Of a stretch of 64,000 bases of DNA, positions 26,928 to 49,697 are shown one piece after another. The stretch covers positions 32,001 to 96,000 of the IMG/VR virus record IMGVR_UViG_2724679293_000007; one strand, given 5' to 3'. Source of the DNA: a virus (taxonomy: Duplodnaviria > Heunggongvirae > Uroviricota > Caudoviricetes). The first letter of the stretch is position 1. Each line of letters begins with the position of its first letter. Made by a program: the position numbers and the translations under genes. The notes under the pieces were generated by a model. The model made no database searches and was not told where the DNA came from. It saw only the letters and a list, made by a program, of their open reading frames with translations.

Positions 26928-27104
26928 ATTTTTTTAGCTTCATATGCTACATTAACTTGCTTGCGTGCTAATGCATTTTCGGTTTATCCTAAACAGGCAT
27001 CTTAGTAAAACGGATGCCGGGATTGGAACCCCGGATAATGCAAAAGGCGACACAGACGCCAAAAGCGTCTTTTTTTGTGTCATGCCATCGCACAGCCATA
27101 CGTA

Positions 27105-27200
27105 GCACATAGCTCCGAGATCAATGGTAGTGCTGGCTGGGCTGCCGAAAGGCAGGCCGGTTCCCTTTTGCGCCGGTAGTTCCAACCCAGTCAGTGCTAC
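27105..27200 (+). ncRNA. Candidate c4-type antisense RNA region (boundaries approximate)
   Basis: agttccaacc at about 27180 is complementary to two gattggaacc targets (27022 and 27210), the latter just 5' of the icd Shine-Dalgarno. Confidence 0.3.
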
Positions 27201-27261
27201 CGCCATTGAGATTGGAACCTCACGCGGTAGCTCCTTAAATTAGCAAAAGGAGGCTGCCATT

Positions 27262-28600: not shown

Positions 28601-28617
28601 TTTGCTCTAATAAATTT
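28601..28617 (+). promoter_or_regulatory. C1 operator upstream of kilA-repL (Op53-like)
   Basis: tttgctctaataaattt, 16/17 consensus match, about 70 bp upstream of the kilA start. Confidence 0.65.
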
Positions 28618-28686: not shown

Positions 28687-29487
28687 ATGCAACAAACATT
28701 CAATGCGGATATGAATATATCAAACCTTCATCAAAATGTCGATCCTTCAACCACTCTGCCCGTTATTTGTGGTGTTGAAATTACGACCGACCGCGCTGGC
28801 CGTTACAACCTTAATGCTCTACACAGAGCGAGCGGACTCGGTGCCCATAAAGCGCCAGCTCAATGGCTAAGAACGCTGTCAGCTAAACAGCTCATCGAAG
28901 AGCTTGAAAAAGAAACTATGCAGAATTGCATAGTTTCGTTCGAAGGCCGTGGCGGCGGCACTTTTGCCCATGAATTGCTCGCTGTGGAGTACGCAGGCTG
29001 GATTTCTCCCGCGTTTCGGCTGAAGGTAAACCAGACATTTATCGACTATCGAGCTGGAAGATTACAACCTGCTATTCCGCAGAGTCTCCCTGAAGCTCTC
29101 CGTTTGGCTGCCGACCTGGCAGAGCAAAAGCAACGGCTGGAGCAAAAAATGCTTATGGATGCACCTAAAGTCGAATTCGCCGAACGCGTTGCTACCGCCA
29201 GCGGGGTTCTAATCGGCAACTATGCCAAAGTGCTCGGCCTGGGCCAAAACTATCTCTTCACCTGGTTGCGTGATAACGGAATTCTGATCGCAACCGGAGA
29301 ACGCAGGAACGTCCCCAAACAAGAATACATCTCCCGTGGGTATTTCCCCCTTAAAGAAACCGTGATCGATACAAGCAATGGAAGCAGGATTTCTTTCACG
29401 ACTCGTATAACCGGCAAAGGTCAGCAGTGGCTGATGAAGCGATTGCTTGATGCTGGTGTGCTGGTACCTGTCGCGGCAACGCGCTAA
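28687..29487 (+). CDS. kilA: KilA (266 aa; KilA-N plus KilA-C domains)
   Basis: Domain architecture and position immediately upstream of repL. Confidence 0.75.
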   Translation: MQQTFNADMNISNLHQNVDPSTTLPVICGVEITTDRAGRYNLNALHRASGLGAHKAPAQWLRTLSAKQLIEELEKETMQNCIVSFEGRGGGTFAHELLAVEYAGWISPAFRLKVNQTFIDYRAGRLQPAIPQSLPEALRLAADLAEQKQRLEQKMLMDAPKVEFAERVATASGVLIGNYAKVLGLGQNYLFTWLRDNGILIATGERRNVPKQEYISRGYFPLKETVIDTSNGSRISFTTRITGKGQQWLMKRLLDAGVLVPVAATR

Positions 29488-29516
29488 CAGACGTAGTAAG
29501 AACCACCAGCATTGTA

Positions 29517-30362
29517 ATGCTGGCTAAAGTCACTTTCCTGAGCTGTATAACGATGAGCGATTTTACTTTTTCTGGCTATGAATTGGCCTGCTTTGTAACA
29601 CACTCCGGTCTATCCCGTAGCGCCGGGCATATCCTGTCGCAATGTGCAAATCTCGCGGCAACAACCAGTGAATACTTCATTCACAAGCCTCACCGCCTGA
29701 TCGCGGCAGAAACTGGTTATAGCCAATCAACCGTCGTTCGTGCATTCCGTGAAGCTGTAAACAAAGGAATCCTGTCTGTAGAGATTGTTATCGGCGATCA
29801 CCGTGAACGTCGCGCTAACCTGTACCGGTTTACACCATCCTTTTTGGCCTTCGCACAACAAGCCAAAAATGCGCTGATTGAAAGCAAATTAAAGATCTCT
29901 TCAGCGGCAACCAAGGTTAAAGCTGTTCTCGCTAAGACATTGGCTTTATTTAATTTTTTATCCACACCCCCATGTCAAAATGATACCCCCTCCCCCTGTC
30001 AGGATGACGTGGCAATAAAGAATAAGAAGTCACAAGTTAAAAAAACAAAAAGATCAGTTTCCGGCGGTGCCGGAACGAGCAGACTCAAAAAATTGACTTC
30101 ATGGATCGCTGAGGCAAAAGCAAAGGCTGACAATCTGCGGTTATCCAAAAAACGCGCTCAAAAACATGAGTTCAAGCAGAAAGTAGAGGCGGCAGCGCGG
30201 AAATATGCTTACCTGAAGAACAAGCGTTCTCCTGATATTTGCGGGATATCAAACTTCGATAATCTGCCGCATTGCATGACGGTAAACAAAGCTCTTAATG
30301 CGGTTTTAGCCAAAAATAAAGATAACGAACAATGGGGTATACCGGCAGGATTCAGAGGGTGA
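29517..30362 (+). CDS. repL: RepL lytic-replicon initiator (281 aa)
   Basis: Sequence and size as recalled for P1 RepL; follows kilA. Confidence 0.75.
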   Translation: MLAKVTFLSCITMSDFTFSGYELACFVTHSGLSRSAGHILSQCANLAATTSEYFIHKPHRLIAAETGYSQSTVVRAFREAVNKGILSVEIVIGDHRERRANLYRFTPSFLAFAQQAKNALIESKLKISSAATKVKAVLAKTLALFNFLSTPPCQNDTPSPCQDDVAIKNKKSQVKKTKRSVSGGAGTSRLKKLTSWIAEAKAKADNLRLSKKRAQKHEFKQKVEAAARKYAYLKNKRSPDICGISNFDNLPHCMTVNKALNAVLAKNKDNEQWGIPAGFRG

Positions 30363-30412
30363 TAGATTGCTCTAATCTGGAGTCACCTGGCGTTTTCAGT
30401 TTGAGGTCGGAG

Positions 30413-30658
30413 ATGCAATCTGATTTTTTACAGTTAGCGATCGCTTTTGCAGGATATGTTTGTATTGGCTTCTGTGTATACATGATCAGCCGAAAAATGC
30501 TTGTCGATATCGACCGCAAAGAACGAGCAGAGGAGATCTTAGTATGGATTTTCTTTGGCGCGGTCTGGCCATTAGGGATCATGTTTGCTGCAACATTTCT
30601 TCTGATGTGGATATTCACCCTTCCAGGTGATTTCTATAGAAAAAAAGCCAGACATTGA
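30413..30658 (+). CDS. Small membrane protein (81 aa from the internal Met)
   Basis: Two hydrophobic helices; start placed after the repL stop. Confidence 0.4.
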   Translation: MQSDFLQLAIAFAGYVCIGFCVYMISRKMLVDIDRKERAEEILVWIFFGAVWPLGIMFAATFLLMWIFTLPGDFYRKKARH

Positions 30659-30781
30659 TACAATCGTTGCGGGTGCTTGAGGCTATCTGCTTCAGGCATG
30701 ACCCGAAAAGCAGATAGAAGAAAGCCCCAGATAACATTACGCGTCCTGCAAGACGCTTAACATTAATCTGAGGCCATATCT

Positions 30782-30988
30782 ATGCTTAGCATACGTAGAT
30801 TAGCCTCTTACCGACCAAAAGGTCAAGGAGAAGCAGGCTATGAAGCAGCAAAAAGCGATGTTAATCGCTCTGATCGTCATCTGTTTAACCGTCATTGTGA
30901 CGGCACTGGTAACGAGGAAAGACCTCTGCGAGGTACGAATCCGAACCGGCCAGACGGAGGTCACTGTCTTCACAGCCTACGAATCTGA
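30782..30988 (+). CDS. mok-like overlapping reading frame of the hok locus
   Basis: ORF overlapping the hok-like gene in another frame and ending 7 bp before its stop, as in hok/mok loci. Confidence 0.4.
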   Translation: MLSIRRLASYRPKGQGEAGYEAAKSDVNRSDRHLFNRHCDGTGNEERPLRGTNPNRPDGGHCLHSLRI

Positions 30989-30995
30989 AAGGTAA
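30840..30995 (+). CDS. hok: Hok/Gef-family type I toxin (51 aa)
   Basis: MKQQKAMLIALIVICLTVIVTALVTRKDLCEVRIRTGQTEVTVFTAYESEER; AAGGAG Shine-Dalgarno 8 nt upstream; conserved LTRKxLCExR...AYES pattern. Confidence 0.8.
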   Translation: MKQQKAMLIALIVICLTVIVTALVTRKDLCEVRIRTGQTEVTVFTAYESER

Positions 30996-31314
30996 GAGAC
31001 CTGGCGGGGAGTGATCCCCGCCACTCTTCGTGTGTCTGGTAACCTCAATGCACCCTTTTCTCCCCAATAGTGTAAAACACAATGAAGTAGAAGGAGTTAT
31101 TTCACATCATGCAAAGATTCAGACCATATCTCCCAATAGCCTTCGCGACATGATGACTTTCAGAAATATCTAGCTGTTAACAAAATTCCATACTTGCTTT
31201 GCTAATACCACCTAGATTATATATGGAAAAATACACCTAAAACTTAAACAAATTATATCCACAACAAACATCCATCTATTAGGATTAAAATTAATTTAAT
31301 AATAAATAATACAA

Positions 31315-31341
31315 CACCGGTTCATTTTCTAACAAACCGGT
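31315..31341 (-). terminator. Rho-independent terminator of the MazG-like gene
   Basis: caccggtt-loop-aaccggtg stem followed on the - strand by a T-rich run. Confidence 0.5.
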
Positions 31342-31349
31342 GGGCACCA

Positions 31350-32420
31350 TTATTGGAATAACTTACTGATTACATTAAAAACATTAAGGGCGTTACTTGC
31401 CACACTAGACATCTTGGCTGAATTTTTTTCGATTGAGTCAAGAACACTTTCGACTTCCGATAAAGTTCTTCTGCTATCTGCATCTTTTCCTGAGTCTATC
31501 GCATCTTTAATTGCAGATATAGCAGACTCTAAATTCTCCTTAAACTCACCTGTCGTCTCATCCTTCAAGAGAAGTTCTAACTCTTGTTTAAGTTTTTCCA
31601 ATGATGCTCTTTTCTCATCAGTTTTACTAATCTTCCCTGAATAACTGACACAAACACATTCTCTTTTATTGCAGACAGGACAACCATTTAGATAATAACT
31701 TTCAAACGCCTCGCCAAGATCATCATCTTTAAAAATAATCCCCCATAAAGAAAACAACCAAGCATATATATCAGCACACTCTTCATGAAGATTTTCTTTG
31801 TTGTAATTTTTATCTTCAATTGATTTAGCATAAGCCTCTTGCAACTCACCCAACTCTTCGAATAACCTGGATGAATGATAAAACCCACCAAAAGTAGACC
31901 AAATGGTTCTATTCGACGGATAGATATCATTAATCATTCGTGGCGCATAAGGCGGAAATTGCATAGGTTTAATAGCGTTATATTTATTGAAAAGCTCATC
32001 TTTAATTCCTTTTGCGCTTCTTATTTTCTCTGGCTTTCTGTGTGTTTGAGAACAGGAACAAGGCGCCCCTAAGCAATAAGGACAGCAACTAGGGAATTTT
32101 TTATAAAATGCTTCCTGTGGTTGTATTTCAAGTTTATCACAGATTGCAAAAAGCCAAGACAATGCTTCTATATAGGTATTTTTTAATAATTCTTTATCCT
32201 GATTACCATCACGAATAAACTCACGTGTTAAATAAGCTGTTTTCCTTGTCAGATAAGAGTACATATACTCAAATGATTTTTCTTCATTTTTTTTGCTGTA
32301 AATACCTACAATAATATTGCTCATATCATTGATACGTAACATGACATTCCTCTTAAATAAGCCAATACTTCCTAGAACCATATATGCTTCGACAAAGATT
32401 AACGGACATCTTGCCTTCAC
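31350..32420 (-). CDS. Tandem MazG/HisE-like all-alpha NTP-pyrophosphohydrolase-like protein with two Cys clusters (about 330-356 aa)
   Basis: Repeat 2 has EELGELQEAYAKS...EECADIYAWLFSLW then CPVCNKRECVCV; repeat 1 is analogous with CCPYCLGAPCSCS; strongly AT-rich. Confidence 0.5.
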   Translation of the reverse strand: MKARCPLIFVEAYMVLGSIGLFKRNVMLRINDMSNIIVGIYSKKNEEKSFEYMYSYLTRKTAYLTREFIRDGNQDKELLKNTYIEALSWLFAICDKLEIQPQEAFYKKFPSCCPYCLGAPCSCSQTHRKPEKIRSAKGIKDELFNKYNAIKPMQFPPYAPRMINDIYPSNRTIWSTFGGFYHSSRLFEELGELQEAYAKSIEDKNYNKENLHEECADIYAWLFSLWGIIFKDDDLGEAFESYYLNGCPVCNKRECVCVSYSGKISKTDEKRASLEKLKQELELLLKDETTGEFKENLESAISAIKDAIDSGKDADSRRTLSEVESVLDSIEKNSAKMSSVASNALNVFNVISKLFQ

Positions 32421-32639
32421 AAACTTTGACGCTACATAAATTTAACCATGTGCATACTAAATATTTAAGGTAGAAAAGTATAGGAGTATTTATTAATAGG
32501 TAACTGTTAGTTTACACTCACTTCATACCAGAGTATTTACAAGATGTTATTTTACTCTATTCGCTAGGCGGTGGAATGCGGTTGTATCAAGGGGAGGTAA
32601 ACCTCCCCCGAAGAAGATTAAAAGTACAAGGGATAACAC

Positions 32640-49621: not shown

Positions 49622-49697
49622 GGCCCTTTAGCTCAGTGGTTAGAGCTGGCGACTCATAATCGCACGGTCACCGGTTCAAGTCCGGTAGGGGCCACCA
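49622..49697 (+). tRNA. tRNA with CAU anticodon, tRNA-Ile2 (lysidine)-like, with encoded CCA
   Basis: 76-nt cloverleaf; anticodon loop CUCAUAA; G1-C72 pair; T-arm GGTTCAAGTCC; near-identical to E. coli ileX as recalled. Confidence 0.9.

What the first reader, a model, noticed from the sequence alone, without database searches (positions are those of the whole stretch)
30660..31080. hok/mok-type type I toxin locus missing from the ORF track
A 51-aa ORF (30840..30995) encodes a clear Hok/Gef-family membrane toxin with an AAGGAG Shine-Dalgarno. It is overlapped by a longer mok-like frame (30782..30988), and GC-rich fold-back sequence follows its stop. It is shorter than the ORF-track cutoff. A Sok-like antisense RNA is expected on the opposite strand near 30760..30840 but cannot be delimited by eye. 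This would give the phage-plasmid a post-segregational killing or abortive-infection module; from memory, P1's classical addiction system is phd-doc.
Basis: partly seen in the sequence, partly recalled or inferred. Interest (0 to 1): 0.5.

Follow-up and report, generated by a model that had tools for sequence, protein, structure and literature searches.

The report
Known hok/mok/sok toxin-antitoxin cassette
This is a complete hok/mok/sok type I toxin-antitoxin cassette in a known variable cargo slot of a P1-like phage-plasmid; it is real but ordinary, because the identical locus is already annotated as hokD in hundreds of public plasmids.

Summary
The 51-aa ORF at 30840..30995 is a Hok/Gef toxin (Pfam PF01848, 78.7 bits against a cutoff of 22). 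Its leader matches Rfam RF01794 (113.9 bits against 59). All regulatory parts of a hok locus are present:
- an out-of-frame mok, 58 nt upstream of hok as in plasmid R1;
- 5'/3' end-pairing (tac/fbi);
- an anti-SD (ucb) that sequesters the mok ribosome-binding site;
- dcb;
- a protective 3' hairpin;
- a 71-nt antisense Sok RNA at 30790->30720 with its own promoter.

The Sok -10 aligns with the -10 that was inactivated experimentally in the 88%-identical hokW-sokW locus. Across 20 loci from Escherichia to Photorhabdus the mRNA fold is kept by compensatory changes.

The cassette lies in a 2.2-kb segment (30377..32606) that replaces rlfA-rlfB-pmgF of reference P1. This is a published hypervariable region. 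Between 284 and 417 PLSDB plasmid records carry the locus, against about 507 that carry P1-type repL. PGAP already names it hokD. One plasmid with an identical hok locus also has phd-doc, so hok/sok is a second addiction-type module.

The biological role was not tested. Candidates are post-segregational killing, help with lysis on induction, and phage exclusion. Novelty: already known. Interest: low.

The parts
30637..30664 (+). Candidate hok mRNA promoter: -35 TAGAAA (30637-30642), 16-nt spacer, extended -10 TG-n-TACAAT (30656-30664). It lies inside the 3' end of the upstream small ORF.
   Evidence: Consensus scan, (9/12 matches, TG present). A -10-like hexamer sits at the same distance from the conserved GCGGGTGC in the other loci. 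No transcript data are available.
30671..31060 (+). Full-length mok-hok mRNA. The 5' end is inferred at G30671. The 3' end is approximate, just after fbi, and no canonical terminator was found there.
   Evidence: Rfam RF01794 starts at 30671. Homology to the phage and chromosomal hok loci runs from 30659-30669 to 31055 only. Fold: -156 kcal/mol, z = -8.8.
30671..30682 (+). tac (translational activator element), GGGUGCUUGAGG, at the extreme 5' end of the mRNA.
   Evidence: Pairs with 31043-31055 in the MFE structure. Duplex energy -21.9 kcal/mol. Covariation at alignment columns 55/474: UA 10, CG 7, UG 2, none unpaired.
30724..30733 (+). ucb (anti-Shine-Dalgarno). GCCCC and the following bases pair with the mok SD region in the full-length, closed form.
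   Evidence: MFE partners G30724:C30774, C30725:G30773, C30726:G30772, C30728:G30770. Helix 5 has 8 pairs with changes on both sides. Element name as defined in PMC9841398.
30770..30773 (+). mok Shine-Dalgarno GAGG, 8 nt upstream of the mok ATG.
   Evidence: Read directly from the sequence. Sequestered by ucb in the MFE structure. The same GAGG motif is the mok SD in R1 (PMC9841398).
30782..30988 (+). mok, a 68-codon leader ORF that overlaps hok out of frame. Its translation is expected to be needed for hok translation.
   Evidence: ORF list. The 58-nt offset to hok equals the R1 offset (A116 against A174 in PMC9841398). No Pfam or NCBIfam match, as expected for a frame whose product is not what matters. 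Frames compared across homologues.
30803..30807 (+). dcb, GCCUC, the alternative partner of the mok SD in the open form. It lies inside the Sok promoter spacer region.
   Evidence: When tac/ucb pairing is enforced on the 3'-truncated RNA, G30770-C30774 pair with C30807-G30803. Placement agrees with the R1 description.
30840..30995 (+). hok, a 51-aa Hok/Gef-family membrane toxin of the HokD/HokW subgroup. Its SD, AAGGAG, is at 30825-30830.
   Evidence: Pfam PF01848, 78.7 bits against a cutoff of 22. PGAP product WP_001313475.1 'HokD' on identical DNA. 47/51 identical to HokW. dN/dS about 0.15-0.25 against divergent loci.
30991..30998 (+). GGUAAGAG, spanning the hok stop codon. It is the 3' arm of a conserved long-range helix whose 5' arm is CCUCUUACC at 30805-30812.
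   Evidence: MFE partners. Helix 7 is 89.7% paired and almost invariant in the 20 loci. I did not match it to a named R1 element.
31002..31023 (+). GC-rich 9-bp hairpin after the stop codon. It is the expected 3'-terminal protective stem-loop of the processed (truncated) hok mRNA.
   Evidence: Present in the MFE structure. Helices 16-17 are 81-98% paired, with 2 pairs changed on both sides. The role is inferred from R1, where mutations in the last stem-loop of Tr-hok abolish toxicity.
31043..31055 (+). fbi (fold-back inhibitory element), CCUCAA(U)GCACCC, which pairs with tac. Homology among hok loci ends exactly here.
   Evidence: 12 bp with one bulged U31049; covariation; end of conserved sequence.
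30720..30790 (-). Sok-type antisense RNA, about 71 nt. A 15-nt single-stranded 5' tail is complementary to the mok start region (30776-30790). It is followed by a long hairpin and a U-rich tail.
   Evidence: Mapped from the annotated, experimentally detected sokW (L001 1554..1624) through alignment A1. Fold -33.6 kcal/mol, z = -5.3 for the 79-nt stretch 30712-30790, and -29.1 kcal/mol for the 71 nt. The ends were not determined experimentally.
30797..30826 (-). Sok promoter: -35 TTGACC (30826->30821), 18-nt spacer, -10 TAATCT (30802->30797), start near 30790. The -35 overlaps the hok SD on the other strand.
   Evidence: Read from the sequence. Conserved in 18 of 20 loci. The -10 is homologous to the sokW -10 that was mutated in the 'pro-less' construct. 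The consensus scan did not report it because the -10 matches only 3 of 6 positions.
30377..32606 (.). Cargo segment that replaces P1 rlfA-rlfB-pmgF (P1 51586..53420). It holds a small membrane ORF (30413..30658), the hok/sok cassette, and a MazG-like gene (31350..32420, minus strand).
   Evidence: blastn of the window against reference P1. P1 annotation. Annotation of a plasmid with an identical hok locus. This is a known hypervariable 'region 5' (PMC9603915) and the replacement was noted in PMC6906374.

Best explanation
The locus is an intact hok/mok/sok type I toxin-antitoxin cassette of the HokD/HokW subgroup. It is carried as cargo in the rlfA-rlfB-pmgF variable slot of a P1-like (IncY-type) phage-plasmid.

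Inferred mechanism, by analogy with R1 hok/sok and Sp5 hokW-sokW:
1. A weak constitutive promoter makes a stable mRNA of about 385-390 nt.
2. The extreme 5' end of that mRNA (tac) pairs with the 3' element fbi, and the mok ribosome-binding site is sequestered by ucb. The full-length RNA is therefore neither translated nor bound by Sok.
3. Slow 3' trimming back to the GC-rich hairpin removes fbi. The RNA can then refold: tac pairs with ucb and the mok SD moves onto dcb.
4. Ribosomes translating mok open the hok start region, and the 51-aa Hok peptide inserts into the inner membrane and kills the cell.
5. In cells that keep the element, the short-lived 71-nt antisense Sok RNA covers the mok start region of the processed mRNA and blocks its translation. 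The duplex is probably cleaved by RNase III.
6. If Sok synthesis stops, through loss of the plasmid prophage or a shut-off of transcription, the stable mRNA pool is activated.

What was shown here: family membership, presence of all elements, the predicted closed fold, covariation, the conserved antisense promoter, and purifying selection on the peptide. What is inferred: toxicity, processing, refolding and Sok instability.

The most likely biological role is post-segregational killing that stabilises the low-copy plasmid prophage alongside phd-doc. I put this at about 50%. Help with lysis on induction is about 25%. The remainder is split between phage exclusion and no significant role.
For: - Pfam HOK_GEF 78.7 bits, cutoff 22. 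Rfam RF01794 113.9 bits, gathering score 59.
- 88% nucleotide identity to hokW/mokW/sokW of phage 933W across the cassette, roughly 30669..31055.
- hokW-sokW has been shown experimentally to be a type I TA. Its Sok promoter mutation unmasks toxicity (PMC8621323).
- The full-length fold is -156 kcal/mol with z = -8.8. It contains tac:fbi pairing and ucb:mok-SD pairing.
- Over 20 loci, 85.9% of cells are paired against about 40% in slid controls. 36 pairs change on both sides, and 0 of 500 shuffles reach the observed values for percent paired, pairs and cells changed on both sides, or the covariation score.
- The Sok hairpin has z = -5.3. The Sok -35 and -10 are conserved across genera.
- The mok-to-hok offset of 58 nt is the same as in R1.
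- dN/dS is about 0.15-0.25.
- The locus is conserved at 95-100% identity in hundreds of P1-like plasmids and is annotated hokD.
- phd-doc is present on a plasmid with an identical hok locus.
Against: - There are no transcript, toxicity or stability data for this locus.
- The consensus promoter scan did not call the Sok promoter, because its -10 matches only 3 of 6 positions.
- Thermodynamic prediction does not reproduce the activating refolding. The truncated RNA keeps the closed form in its MFE, and the open form costs about +10 kcal/mol.
- No canonical terminator follows fbi, so the 3' end is uncertain.
- Many chromosomal hok loci are known or seen to be decayed. In this set L017, L028 and L043 are examples, so sequence intactness does not guarantee activity.
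- The closest tested homologue, hokW-sokW, was linked to lysis on prophage induction rather than to plasmid stabilisation.
Confidence: 0.9

Rival explanations
1. Same cassette, different role. As with hokW-sokW in Stx prophage Sp5, Sok is lost when the prophage is induced. Hok then permeabilises the membrane early and increases or accelerates phage release. On this reading it is a lysis helper rather than a plasmid-addiction module.
For: - The closest tested homologue behaves this way: sokW RNA disappears after mitomycin C, HokW appears about 1 h before the endolysin, and phage yield is halved without the locus (PMC8621323).
- Here the cassette lies directly downstream of the C1-controlled kilA-repL lytic operon and in the same orientation. 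The nearest C1 operator is at 28601 and none lies after repL. Only a weak terminator-like hairpin (30615-30630) sits in between.
- Transcription on induction would therefore run head-on into the Sok promoter.
Against: - No data exist for P1-like elements.
- Sp5 is an integrated lambdoid prophage induced through RecA. This element is a low-copy plasmid, for which post-segregational killing is the classical benefit of hok/sok.
- Read-through and transcriptional interference are conjecture.
- The two roles are not mutually exclusive.
Confidence: 0.25
2. Same cassette acting mainly as an anti-phage exclusion or abortive-infection module. Host transcription shut-off by an infecting lytic phage would deplete Sok and release Hok.
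For: R1 hok/sok on a high-copy plasmid is reported to reduce T4 efficiency of plating by 42% and plaque size by about 85% (as cited in PMC8621323). Cargo slots of phage-plasmids often hold defence genes (general knowledge).
Against: The reported effect is modest and was obtained at high copy number. Nothing in this locus distinguishes it from stabilisation-type hok loci. This was not tested here.
Confidence: 0.1
3. The locus is an inert relic. It looks intact but is not expressed at toxic levels, like several chromosomal hok loci of E. coli K-12.
For: Decayed relatives exist in the comparison set: L028 and L043 have lost the leader and L017 has a degenerate fbi. The hok -35 is poor.
Against: - The ORF, both SDs, mok, tac, fbi, ucb, dcb, the 3' hairpin and the Sok promoter are all intact.
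- The sequence is kept at 95-100% identity in hundreds of plasmids.
- There is purifying selection on the peptide.
- A weak hok promoter is normal for the family (established knowledge of R1 hok/sok).
Confidence: 0.07
4. The ORF is a chance short ORF and its resemblance to Hok is spurious.
For: None beyond its short length.
Against: Pfam E 2.4e-22 over the full model, an Rfam hit above the gathering score, covariation, and PGAP annotation of the same sequence.
Confidence: 0.01

Closest known systems
hokW-mokW-sokW of Stx2 phages 933W / Sakai prophage 5
   Same: About 88% nucleotide identity over the whole cassette, from the mRNA start to fbi. Hok is 47/51 identical. The leader hairpins, the Sok position (71 nt) and the Sok -10 position are the same. 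This is the experimentally validated type I TA (PMC8621323).
   Different: - In 933W one base is missing between dcb and the hok SD. The mok ATG is then 57 nt upstream and in frame with hok, giving an N-terminally extended Hok. Here the offset is 58 nt and mok is out of frame.
- The Sok promoter is -35 TTGCCT with a 17-nt spacer and -10 TAACCT in 933W, against TTGACC, 18 nt and TAATCT here.
- The host element is an integrated lambdoid prophage, not a plasmid prophage.
hok/mok/sok of plasmid R1 (parB), the founding member
   Same: The architecture and the set of named elements are the same: tac, fbi, ucb, dcb, a GAGG mok SD, an out-of-frame mok 58 nt upstream of hok, a 3' protective hairpin, and an antisense Sok covering the mok start region. 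The Rfam family is the same.
   Different: The protein is only distantly similar: HokW is reported as 44% identical to R1 Hok. The window's leader is a few nucleotides shorter, with the mok ATG at +112 against +116. I did not make a direct nucleotide alignment to R1.
Chromosomal hokD (relF, Qin prophage) and hokC/gef of E. coli
   Same: HokD is 48/51 identical, and PGAP names the window's product HokD. The loci L007 (HokD-type) and L017 (HokC-type) align along the whole cassette.
   Different: Those chromosomal and prophage copies have an in-frame mok. Some are decayed: L017 lacks a functional fbi. From established knowledge (Pedersen and Gerdes 1999), several K-12 chromosomal hok loci are inactive. 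I did not re-check that here.
phd-doc of P1 (type II addiction module)
   Same: Both are candidate post-segregational killing modules of the same replicon type. Both are present on plasmid NZ_CP074369.1.
   Different: They are unrelated in sequence and mechanism. phd-doc has a protein antitoxin and a Fic-family kinase toxin, whereas hok/sok has an RNA antitoxin and a membrane peptide. phd-doc lies about 40 kb away, outside this window, and belongs to the conserved P1 backbone, whereas hok/sok is in a variable slot.

Membership tests
Hok/Gef toxin family (Pfam PF01848) | Matches the family HMM above the curated threshold over its full length | tested here: met
   78.7 bits against a cutoff of 22, profile positions 1-42 of 42, E 2.4e-22. 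The NCBIfam Hok subfamily models give 49.5 and 38.1 bits, which is below their strict subfamily and equivalog cutoffs.
Hok/Gef toxin family (Pfam PF01848) | Peptide of about 50 aa with an N-terminal hydrophobic helix and a conserved C-terminal part containing Cys | tested here: met
   51 aa. Residues 7-24 (MLIALIVICLTVIVTALV) are hydrophobic. The RKDLCEVRIRTGQTEV motif is conserved across 38 loci. No transmembrane predictor was run.
Hok/Gef toxin family (Pfam PF01848) | Kills or arrests the cell by damaging the inner membrane when expressed | not testable with these tools
   Shown for HokW, which is 47/51 identical (PMC8621323), but not for this peptide.
hok/sok type I toxin-antitoxin locus | Leader RNA matches the curated covariance model (Rfam RF01794) | tested here: met
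   113.9 bits against a gathering score of 59, model positions 1-157 of 157, on the plus strand at 30671..30845. Despite its name 'sok', the model matches on the hok-sense strand, from tac to the hok AUG.
hok/sok type I toxin-antitoxin locus | Overlapping upstream mok frame with its own SD | tested here: met
   ATG at 30782 with GAGG 8 nt upstream, 68 codons, 58 nt before hok as in R1.
hok/sok type I toxin-antitoxin locus | Long-range 5'/3' end-pairing (tac/fbi) that closes the full-length mRNA | tested here: met
   12 bp with one bulge, -21.9 kcal/mol, present in the MFE structure. Compensatory UA/CG exchange in 7 of 19 sequences.
hok/sok type I toxin-antitoxin locus | mok SD sequestered by ucb in the closed form, with alternative tac/ucb and SD/dcb pairings available | tested here: inconclusive
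   The closed form is predicted, and the complementary boxes exist (tac/ucb -11.2, SD/dcb -9.3 kcal/mol). However, the open form is about 10 kcal/mol above the MFE of the truncated RNA.
hok/sok type I toxin-antitoxin locus | Cis-encoded antisense RNA with its own promoter, complementary to the mok translation-initiation region | tested here: met
   -35 TTGACC, 18-nt spacer, -10 TAATCT, conserved in 18 of 20 loci. Homologous to the annotated and mutated sokW. Stable hairpin with z = -5.3. This is sequence-level evidence only; the consensus scan missed the promoter.
hok/sok type I toxin-antitoxin locus | Slow 3' processing of a stable mRNA, an unstable Sok, and RNase III cleavage of the duplex | not testable with these tools
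   Requires northern blots, half-life measurements and an rnc mutant.
hok/sok type I toxin-antitoxin locus | Post-segregational killing or plasmid stabilisation phenotype | not testable with these tools
   Requires plasmid-loss assays.

The most novel reading that the evidence does not exclude
The position of the cassette may wire it into the P1 lysis-lysogeny switch. It lies directly downstream of the C1-repressed kilA-repL lytic-replication operon and in the same orientation. The C1 operator that follows repL in reference P1 (Orlf) is truncated at the slot boundary, and there is no strong terminator in between. On induction, read-through transcription would collide with the convergent Sok promoter, deplete Sok and release Hok. 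This would give a concrete mechanism for the still-unexplained loss of sokW RNA on prophage induction, and would make hok/sok a lysis-timing device in most natural P1-like phage-plasmids.
Probability: 0.12. Interest if true: 0.4.

Novelty: already known. Interest (0 to 1): 0.1.

Why it matters
It matters little for discovery. The family, its mechanism and this exact sequence are already in public annotation, and the replacement of rlfA-rlfB-pmgF in P1-like elements has been published.

It is still useful for annotating this window. It adds a toxin gene, a leader ORF, an antisense RNA and their promoters that a length-filtered ORF track misses.

It also shows that most natural P1-like phage-plasmids in PLSDB carry a type I TA in addition to phd-doc, whereas the laboratory P1 reference has rlfA-rlfB-pmgF at this position. 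That is worth remembering when P1 is used as the model for phage-plasmid maintenance.

Tried and rejected
- The consensus promoter/terminator scan found the hok promoter but not the Sok promoter, and found no terminator after fbi. I placed the Sok promoter by homology instead.
- I first labelled the box at 30800-30812 as 'ucb' and the box at the hok stop codon as 'dcb'. Reading PMC9841398 showed this was wrong. I reassigned ucb to 30724-30733 and dcb to 30803-30807 and recomputed. The -15.9 kcal/mol duplex is therefore tac/dcb, not tac/ucb.
- Folding the 3'-truncated mRNA to see the activating switch did not work. The MFE keeps the closed ucb:SD form and puts tac into a local hairpin with 30689-30704, which resembles the described co-transcriptional metastable structure. 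The switch was not reproduced.
- An ungapped 12-mer search for tac/fbi missed the E. coli-type loci because of the bulged base. The gapped alignment recovered them.
- Pfam and NCBIfam searches with the Mok product found nothing. This is expected.
- The weak minus-strand RF01794 match at 30580..30728 (20.3 bits, E 0.12) and the ceN48 snoRNA match (25.7 bits against 70) are below threshold, and I dismissed them.
- tblastn of Phd and Doc against the window found nothing.
- I did not check whether reference P1 carries hok somewhere outside the 50-62 kb stretch I fetched.
Full report
**1. Observation**

The region reads as the first-stage reader described it. There is a 51-aa ORF at 30840..30995 on the plus strand, MKQQKAMLIALIVICLTVIVTALVTRKDLCEVRIRTGQTEVTVFTAYESER. 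AAGGAG lies at 30825-30830. A 68-aa ORF at 30782..30988 overlaps it in another frame. A GC-rich hairpin follows the stop codon.

This is not a chance ORF.
- The peptide matches Pfam HOK_GEF over the whole model: 78.7 bits against a cutoff of 22, E 2.4e-22.
- It gets sub-cutoff matches to the NCBIfam Hok models.
- Rfam RF01794 matches 30671..30845 at 113.9 bits, against a gathering score of 59.
- That match is on the plus strand. It begins at the conserved 5' box and ends at the hok AUG. So the Rfam family named 'sok' in practice models the hok mRNA leader, and the Sok gene itself is the reverse complement of part of it. This is my inference from the alignment.

**2. What replicon this is**

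The surrounding genes are the immI / lytic-replicon region of a P1-like phage-plasmid.
- C4 antisense RNA lies at 27120-27207.
- It is followed by icd, two KilAC-domain antirepressor genes, and repL at 29517-30362.
- On the other strand are bplB, pmgG and the tail sheath genes.
- Plasmids whose hok locus is 100% identical over the 501-bp query are non-mobilizable, and NZ_CP074369.1 is typed IncY.

Compared with reference P1 (NC_005856), backbone homology runs 28791-30376 at 98.6% identity and resumes at 32607 at 97.5%. The 2.2-kb segment 30377..32606 replaces P1 51586..53420, which holds rlfA, rlfB and pmgF. In this window the slot holds a small membrane ORF (30413..30658), the hok cassette, and a gene PGAP calls MazG-like (31350..32420, minus strand).

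This slot is one of eight published hypervariable regions of P1-like phage-plasmids ('region 5', PMC9603915). Venturini et al. 2019 already reported '3 orfs between repL and bplB substitute rlfA-rlfB-pmgF' in pTZ20_1P, and '2 orfs including antibacterial toxin' in pSvP1 (PMC6906374). The 130,134-bp record NZ_MN510447.1 matches the length given for pTZ20_1P and is 99.8% identical to the locus.

**3. Prevalence and existing annotation**

The 501-bp query 30600-31100 matches 571 PLSDB plasmid records. 417 of them cover at least 80% of it, nearly all at 95-100% identity, and PGAP annotates the ORF as 'type I toxin-antitoxin system toxin HokD' (WP_001313475.1). A 961-bp query that joins the repL 3' end, the small ORF and hok is covered at 80% or more in 284 records. 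P1-type repL is found in 507 records.

So roughly 55-80% of P1-type repL plasmids carry the cassette in this slot. I did not intersect the record lists, so this is an estimate. Six phage records also carry it, and one annotates it 'MokW'. [quoted passage not shown] The plasmid NZ_CP074369.1, which has an identical hok locus, also has phd-doc about 40 kb downstream. That is beyond the end of this window, consistent with the negative tblastn result.

**4. Anatomy of the cassette**

Homology to the hok loci of lambdoid phages (933W, VT2-Sakai, Rac and others, 86-91% identity) starts at about 30659-30669 and ends at 31055. That span is the -10 or transcription start through to the 3' complementary box.

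I took the element names from the R1 description in PMC9841398. The parts are:
- hok promoter: TAGAAA, 16 nt, TG-n-TACAAT, at 30637-30664;
- inferred +1 at G30671;
- tac at 30671-30682;
- ucb (anti-SD) at 30724-30733;
- mok SD GAGG at 30770-30773;
- mok ATG at 30782;
- dcb at 30803-30807;
- hok SD at 30825-30830;
- hok at 30840-30995;
- 3' hairpin at 31002-31023;
- fbi at 31043-31055.

The predicted fold of 30671-31060 is -156 kcal/mol, with z = -8.8 and 0 of 100 shuffles as good. It contains the 12-bp tac:fbi helix and the ucb:mok-SD helix, which is the closed, untranslatable form.

The mok ATG is 58 nt upstream of the hok ATG. R1 has the same offset (mok A116, hok A174, from the mutant names), so mok is out of frame. 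In 933W, hokC-type, hokD-type and Photorhabdus loci the offset is 57 nt, and 'Mok' is an in-frame N-terminal extension of Hok.

**5. The antisense RNA**

The annotated sokW lies at L001 1554..1624 on the minus strand. It is 71 nt and has been detected by northern blot. Through alignment A1 it maps to window 30790->30720.

That RNA has a 15-nt unpaired 5' tail complementary to 30776-30790, which includes the mok AUG. It also has a long hairpin whose complement covers the mok SD, and a U-rich 3' tail. The fold is -33.6 kcal/mol with z = -5.3 for the 79-nt stretch 30712-30790, and -29.1 kcal/mol for the 71 nt.

Upstream on the minus strand are -35 TTGACC (30826->30821), an 18-nt spacer and -10 TAATCT (30802->30797). 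The consensus scan did not call this promoter because the -10 matches only 3 of 6 positions. Two observations support it anyway.
- The primers used to make the 'pro-less' sokW mutant (YO-421/422) change AGGTTA on the hok strand. That is the TAACCT -10 of sokW, and it aligns base for base with the window's AGATTA/TAATCT. The mutation unmasked HokW toxicity.
- The TTG(A)CC ... TAA(T/C)CT arrangement is conserved in 18 of 20 loci, from Escherichia to Photorhabdus and Pantoea.

**6. Comparative test of the RNA mechanism**

A genome scan with the peptide returned 47 loci. I aligned the window, 933W and 18 of those loci from Escherichia, Kluyvera, Citrobacter, Pantoea, Photorhabdus and a metagenome-assembled genome (alignment A2).

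I mapped the window's MFE structure onto A2 and counted pairs.
- 85.9% of cells are standard pairs, against 37-42% when partners are slid by 1-3 columns.
- 36 pairs change on both sides, against 14-24 in the slid controls.
- No shuffle of 500 reaches the observed values for percent paired, pairs or cells changed on both sides, or the covariation score. For further pair types, 134 of 500 do.

One caveat applies: the structure was derived from one member of the alignment, which favours it in the slid control.

The most informative pairs are these.
- tac/fbi, columns 55/474: UA 10, CG 7, UG 2, none unpaired. The window has GGGUGC...GCACCC and Photorhabdus has GGGCGC...GCGCCC.
- The ucb / Sok-target hairpin has eight pairs with changes on both sides.
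- The 3' hairpin is 81-98% paired.

An almost invariant long-range helix, CCUCUUACC (30805-30812) with GGUAAGAG (30991-30998) across the hok stop codon, is also present. L028 and L043 have lost the leader, and L017 has a degenerate fbi. These are examples of decayed loci.

Hok itself is under purifying selection: dN about 0.16-0.24 against dS about 0.85-1.36 for the divergent pairs.

**7. What could not be reproduced**

Removing the 3' end (30671-31025, -31030 or -31035) does not flip the predicted MFE to the open form. tac goes into a local hairpin with 30689-30704, which resembles the metastable co-transcriptional structure described for R1, and ucb stays on the mok SD. Enforcing tac/ucb pairing costs 10-15 kcal/mol. 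For the two shorter truncations it does move the mok SD onto dcb, as the R1 model says. The boxes needed for the switch are therefore present, but the switch itself remains an inference. No canonical terminator follows fbi, so the 3' end of the primary transcript is approximate.

**8. Function**

The identity and the regulatory logic are well supported (confidence 0.9). The biological role is not.
- For a low-copy plasmid prophage the classical role is post-segregational killing, as on R1. Here it would operate alongside phd-doc.
- The closest tested relative, hokW-sokW, instead promotes lysis and doubles phage release on induction. Its Sok disappears by an unknown RecA-dependent route.
- In this window the cassette lies just downstream of the C1-controlled kilA-repL operon and in the same orientation. 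There is an operator at 28601 and none after repL. P1's Orlf operator is cut at the slot boundary. Only a weak hairpin at 30615-30630 lies in between. Read-through on induction could therefore interfere with the convergent Sok promoter. This is speculation, and I give it as the novel case.
- Phage exclusion, reported for R1 hok/sok against T4, is a third possibility.

**9. Verdict**

The locus is a textbook hok/mok/sok cassette. Its exact sequence is annotated in RefSeq, and its presence in this P1 variable region has been noted in the literature. Novelty: already known. Interest: low (0.1).

Noticed in passing
window 30413..30658 (+); a longer ORF runs from 30332 and overlaps the repL 3' end: An 81-aa predicted membrane protein lies between repL and hok. 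PGAP calls it hypothetical (WP_001426344.1). The only Pfam match is sub-threshold (B12D, 18.4 bits against 21.5). The hok promoter lies inside its last 25 bases. In some P1-like records (MH422554) no ORF is annotated here.
   Followed up: partly
window 31350..32420 (-): The other cargo gene of the slot is named 'MazG-like family protein' by PGAP on a plasmid with an identical hok locus. The 356-aa ORF gave no Pfam hit at E <= 0.01. The P1-like phage MH422554 lacks it and has hok directly next to bplB. The hok cassette and this gene are therefore separate modules.
   Followed up: partly
window 30366..30376 compared with P1 51575..51591: The backbone/cargo junction falls inside P1's C1 operator Orlf (Op55). 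Only its first 11 bases are retained, and no C1 operator-like site within 3 mismatches lies between repL and hok. Eight operator-like sites occur elsewhere in the window (0.31 expected by chance), including 26911 and 28601.
   Followed up: partly
window 26997..27075 and 27120..27207 (+): Rfam isrK (58.5 bits) lies immediately upstream of the C4 antisense RNA (76.7 bits) in the immI region. The two hits probably reflect the c4 RNA and its repeated target region.
   Followed up: no
window 11111..11309 (+): Strong Rfam hit to IS009 (RF02111, 192.7 bits against 117), an RNA family whose meaning in a P1-like genome I did not examine.
   Followed up: no
window 49622..49697 (+): ARAGORN and Rfam find a single tRNA gene in the window, tRNA-Met (CAT). 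From memory, reference P1 is described as having three tRNA genes. I did not compare.
   Followed up: no
loci L001, L007, L015, L017, L020, L029-L042 compared with window, L005, L025, L027: There are two mok architectures in the HokD/HokW/HokC subgroup. One is in frame, with a 57-nt offset, so Mok is Hok with a 19-aa N-terminal extension. The other is out of frame, with a 58-nt offset as in R1. The difference is a single base between dcb and the hok SD, which also changes the Sok -35 (TTGCCT against TTGACC) and the spacer (17 against 18 nt).
   Followed up: partly
L014 (Acinetobacter idrijaensis, 275-bp contig), L026 (Xanthomonas pisi, 431-bp contig), L051 (Candidatus Scatousia MAG): Segments of Hok 100% identical to the window's sit on tiny contigs of non-enterobacterial assemblies. 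This most likely reflects contamination of those assemblies with E. coli or P1-like DNA.
   Followed up: no
L017 (E. coli chromosome, HokC-type), L028 (Kluyvera), L043 (Photorhabdus): These are naturally decayed hok loci. L017 keeps the leader but has a degenerate fbi (GAAGAATGCGACG). L028 and L043 have unrelated sequence in place of the leader and Sok promoter, yet keep an intact hok ORF.
   Followed up: partly
NZ_CP074369.1 87060..88364 (locus L052 43061..44365): The plasmid with an identical hok locus carries a SIR2-family protein gene next to ref, in another variable region. It is possibly a defence gene. It lies outside this window.
   Followed up: no
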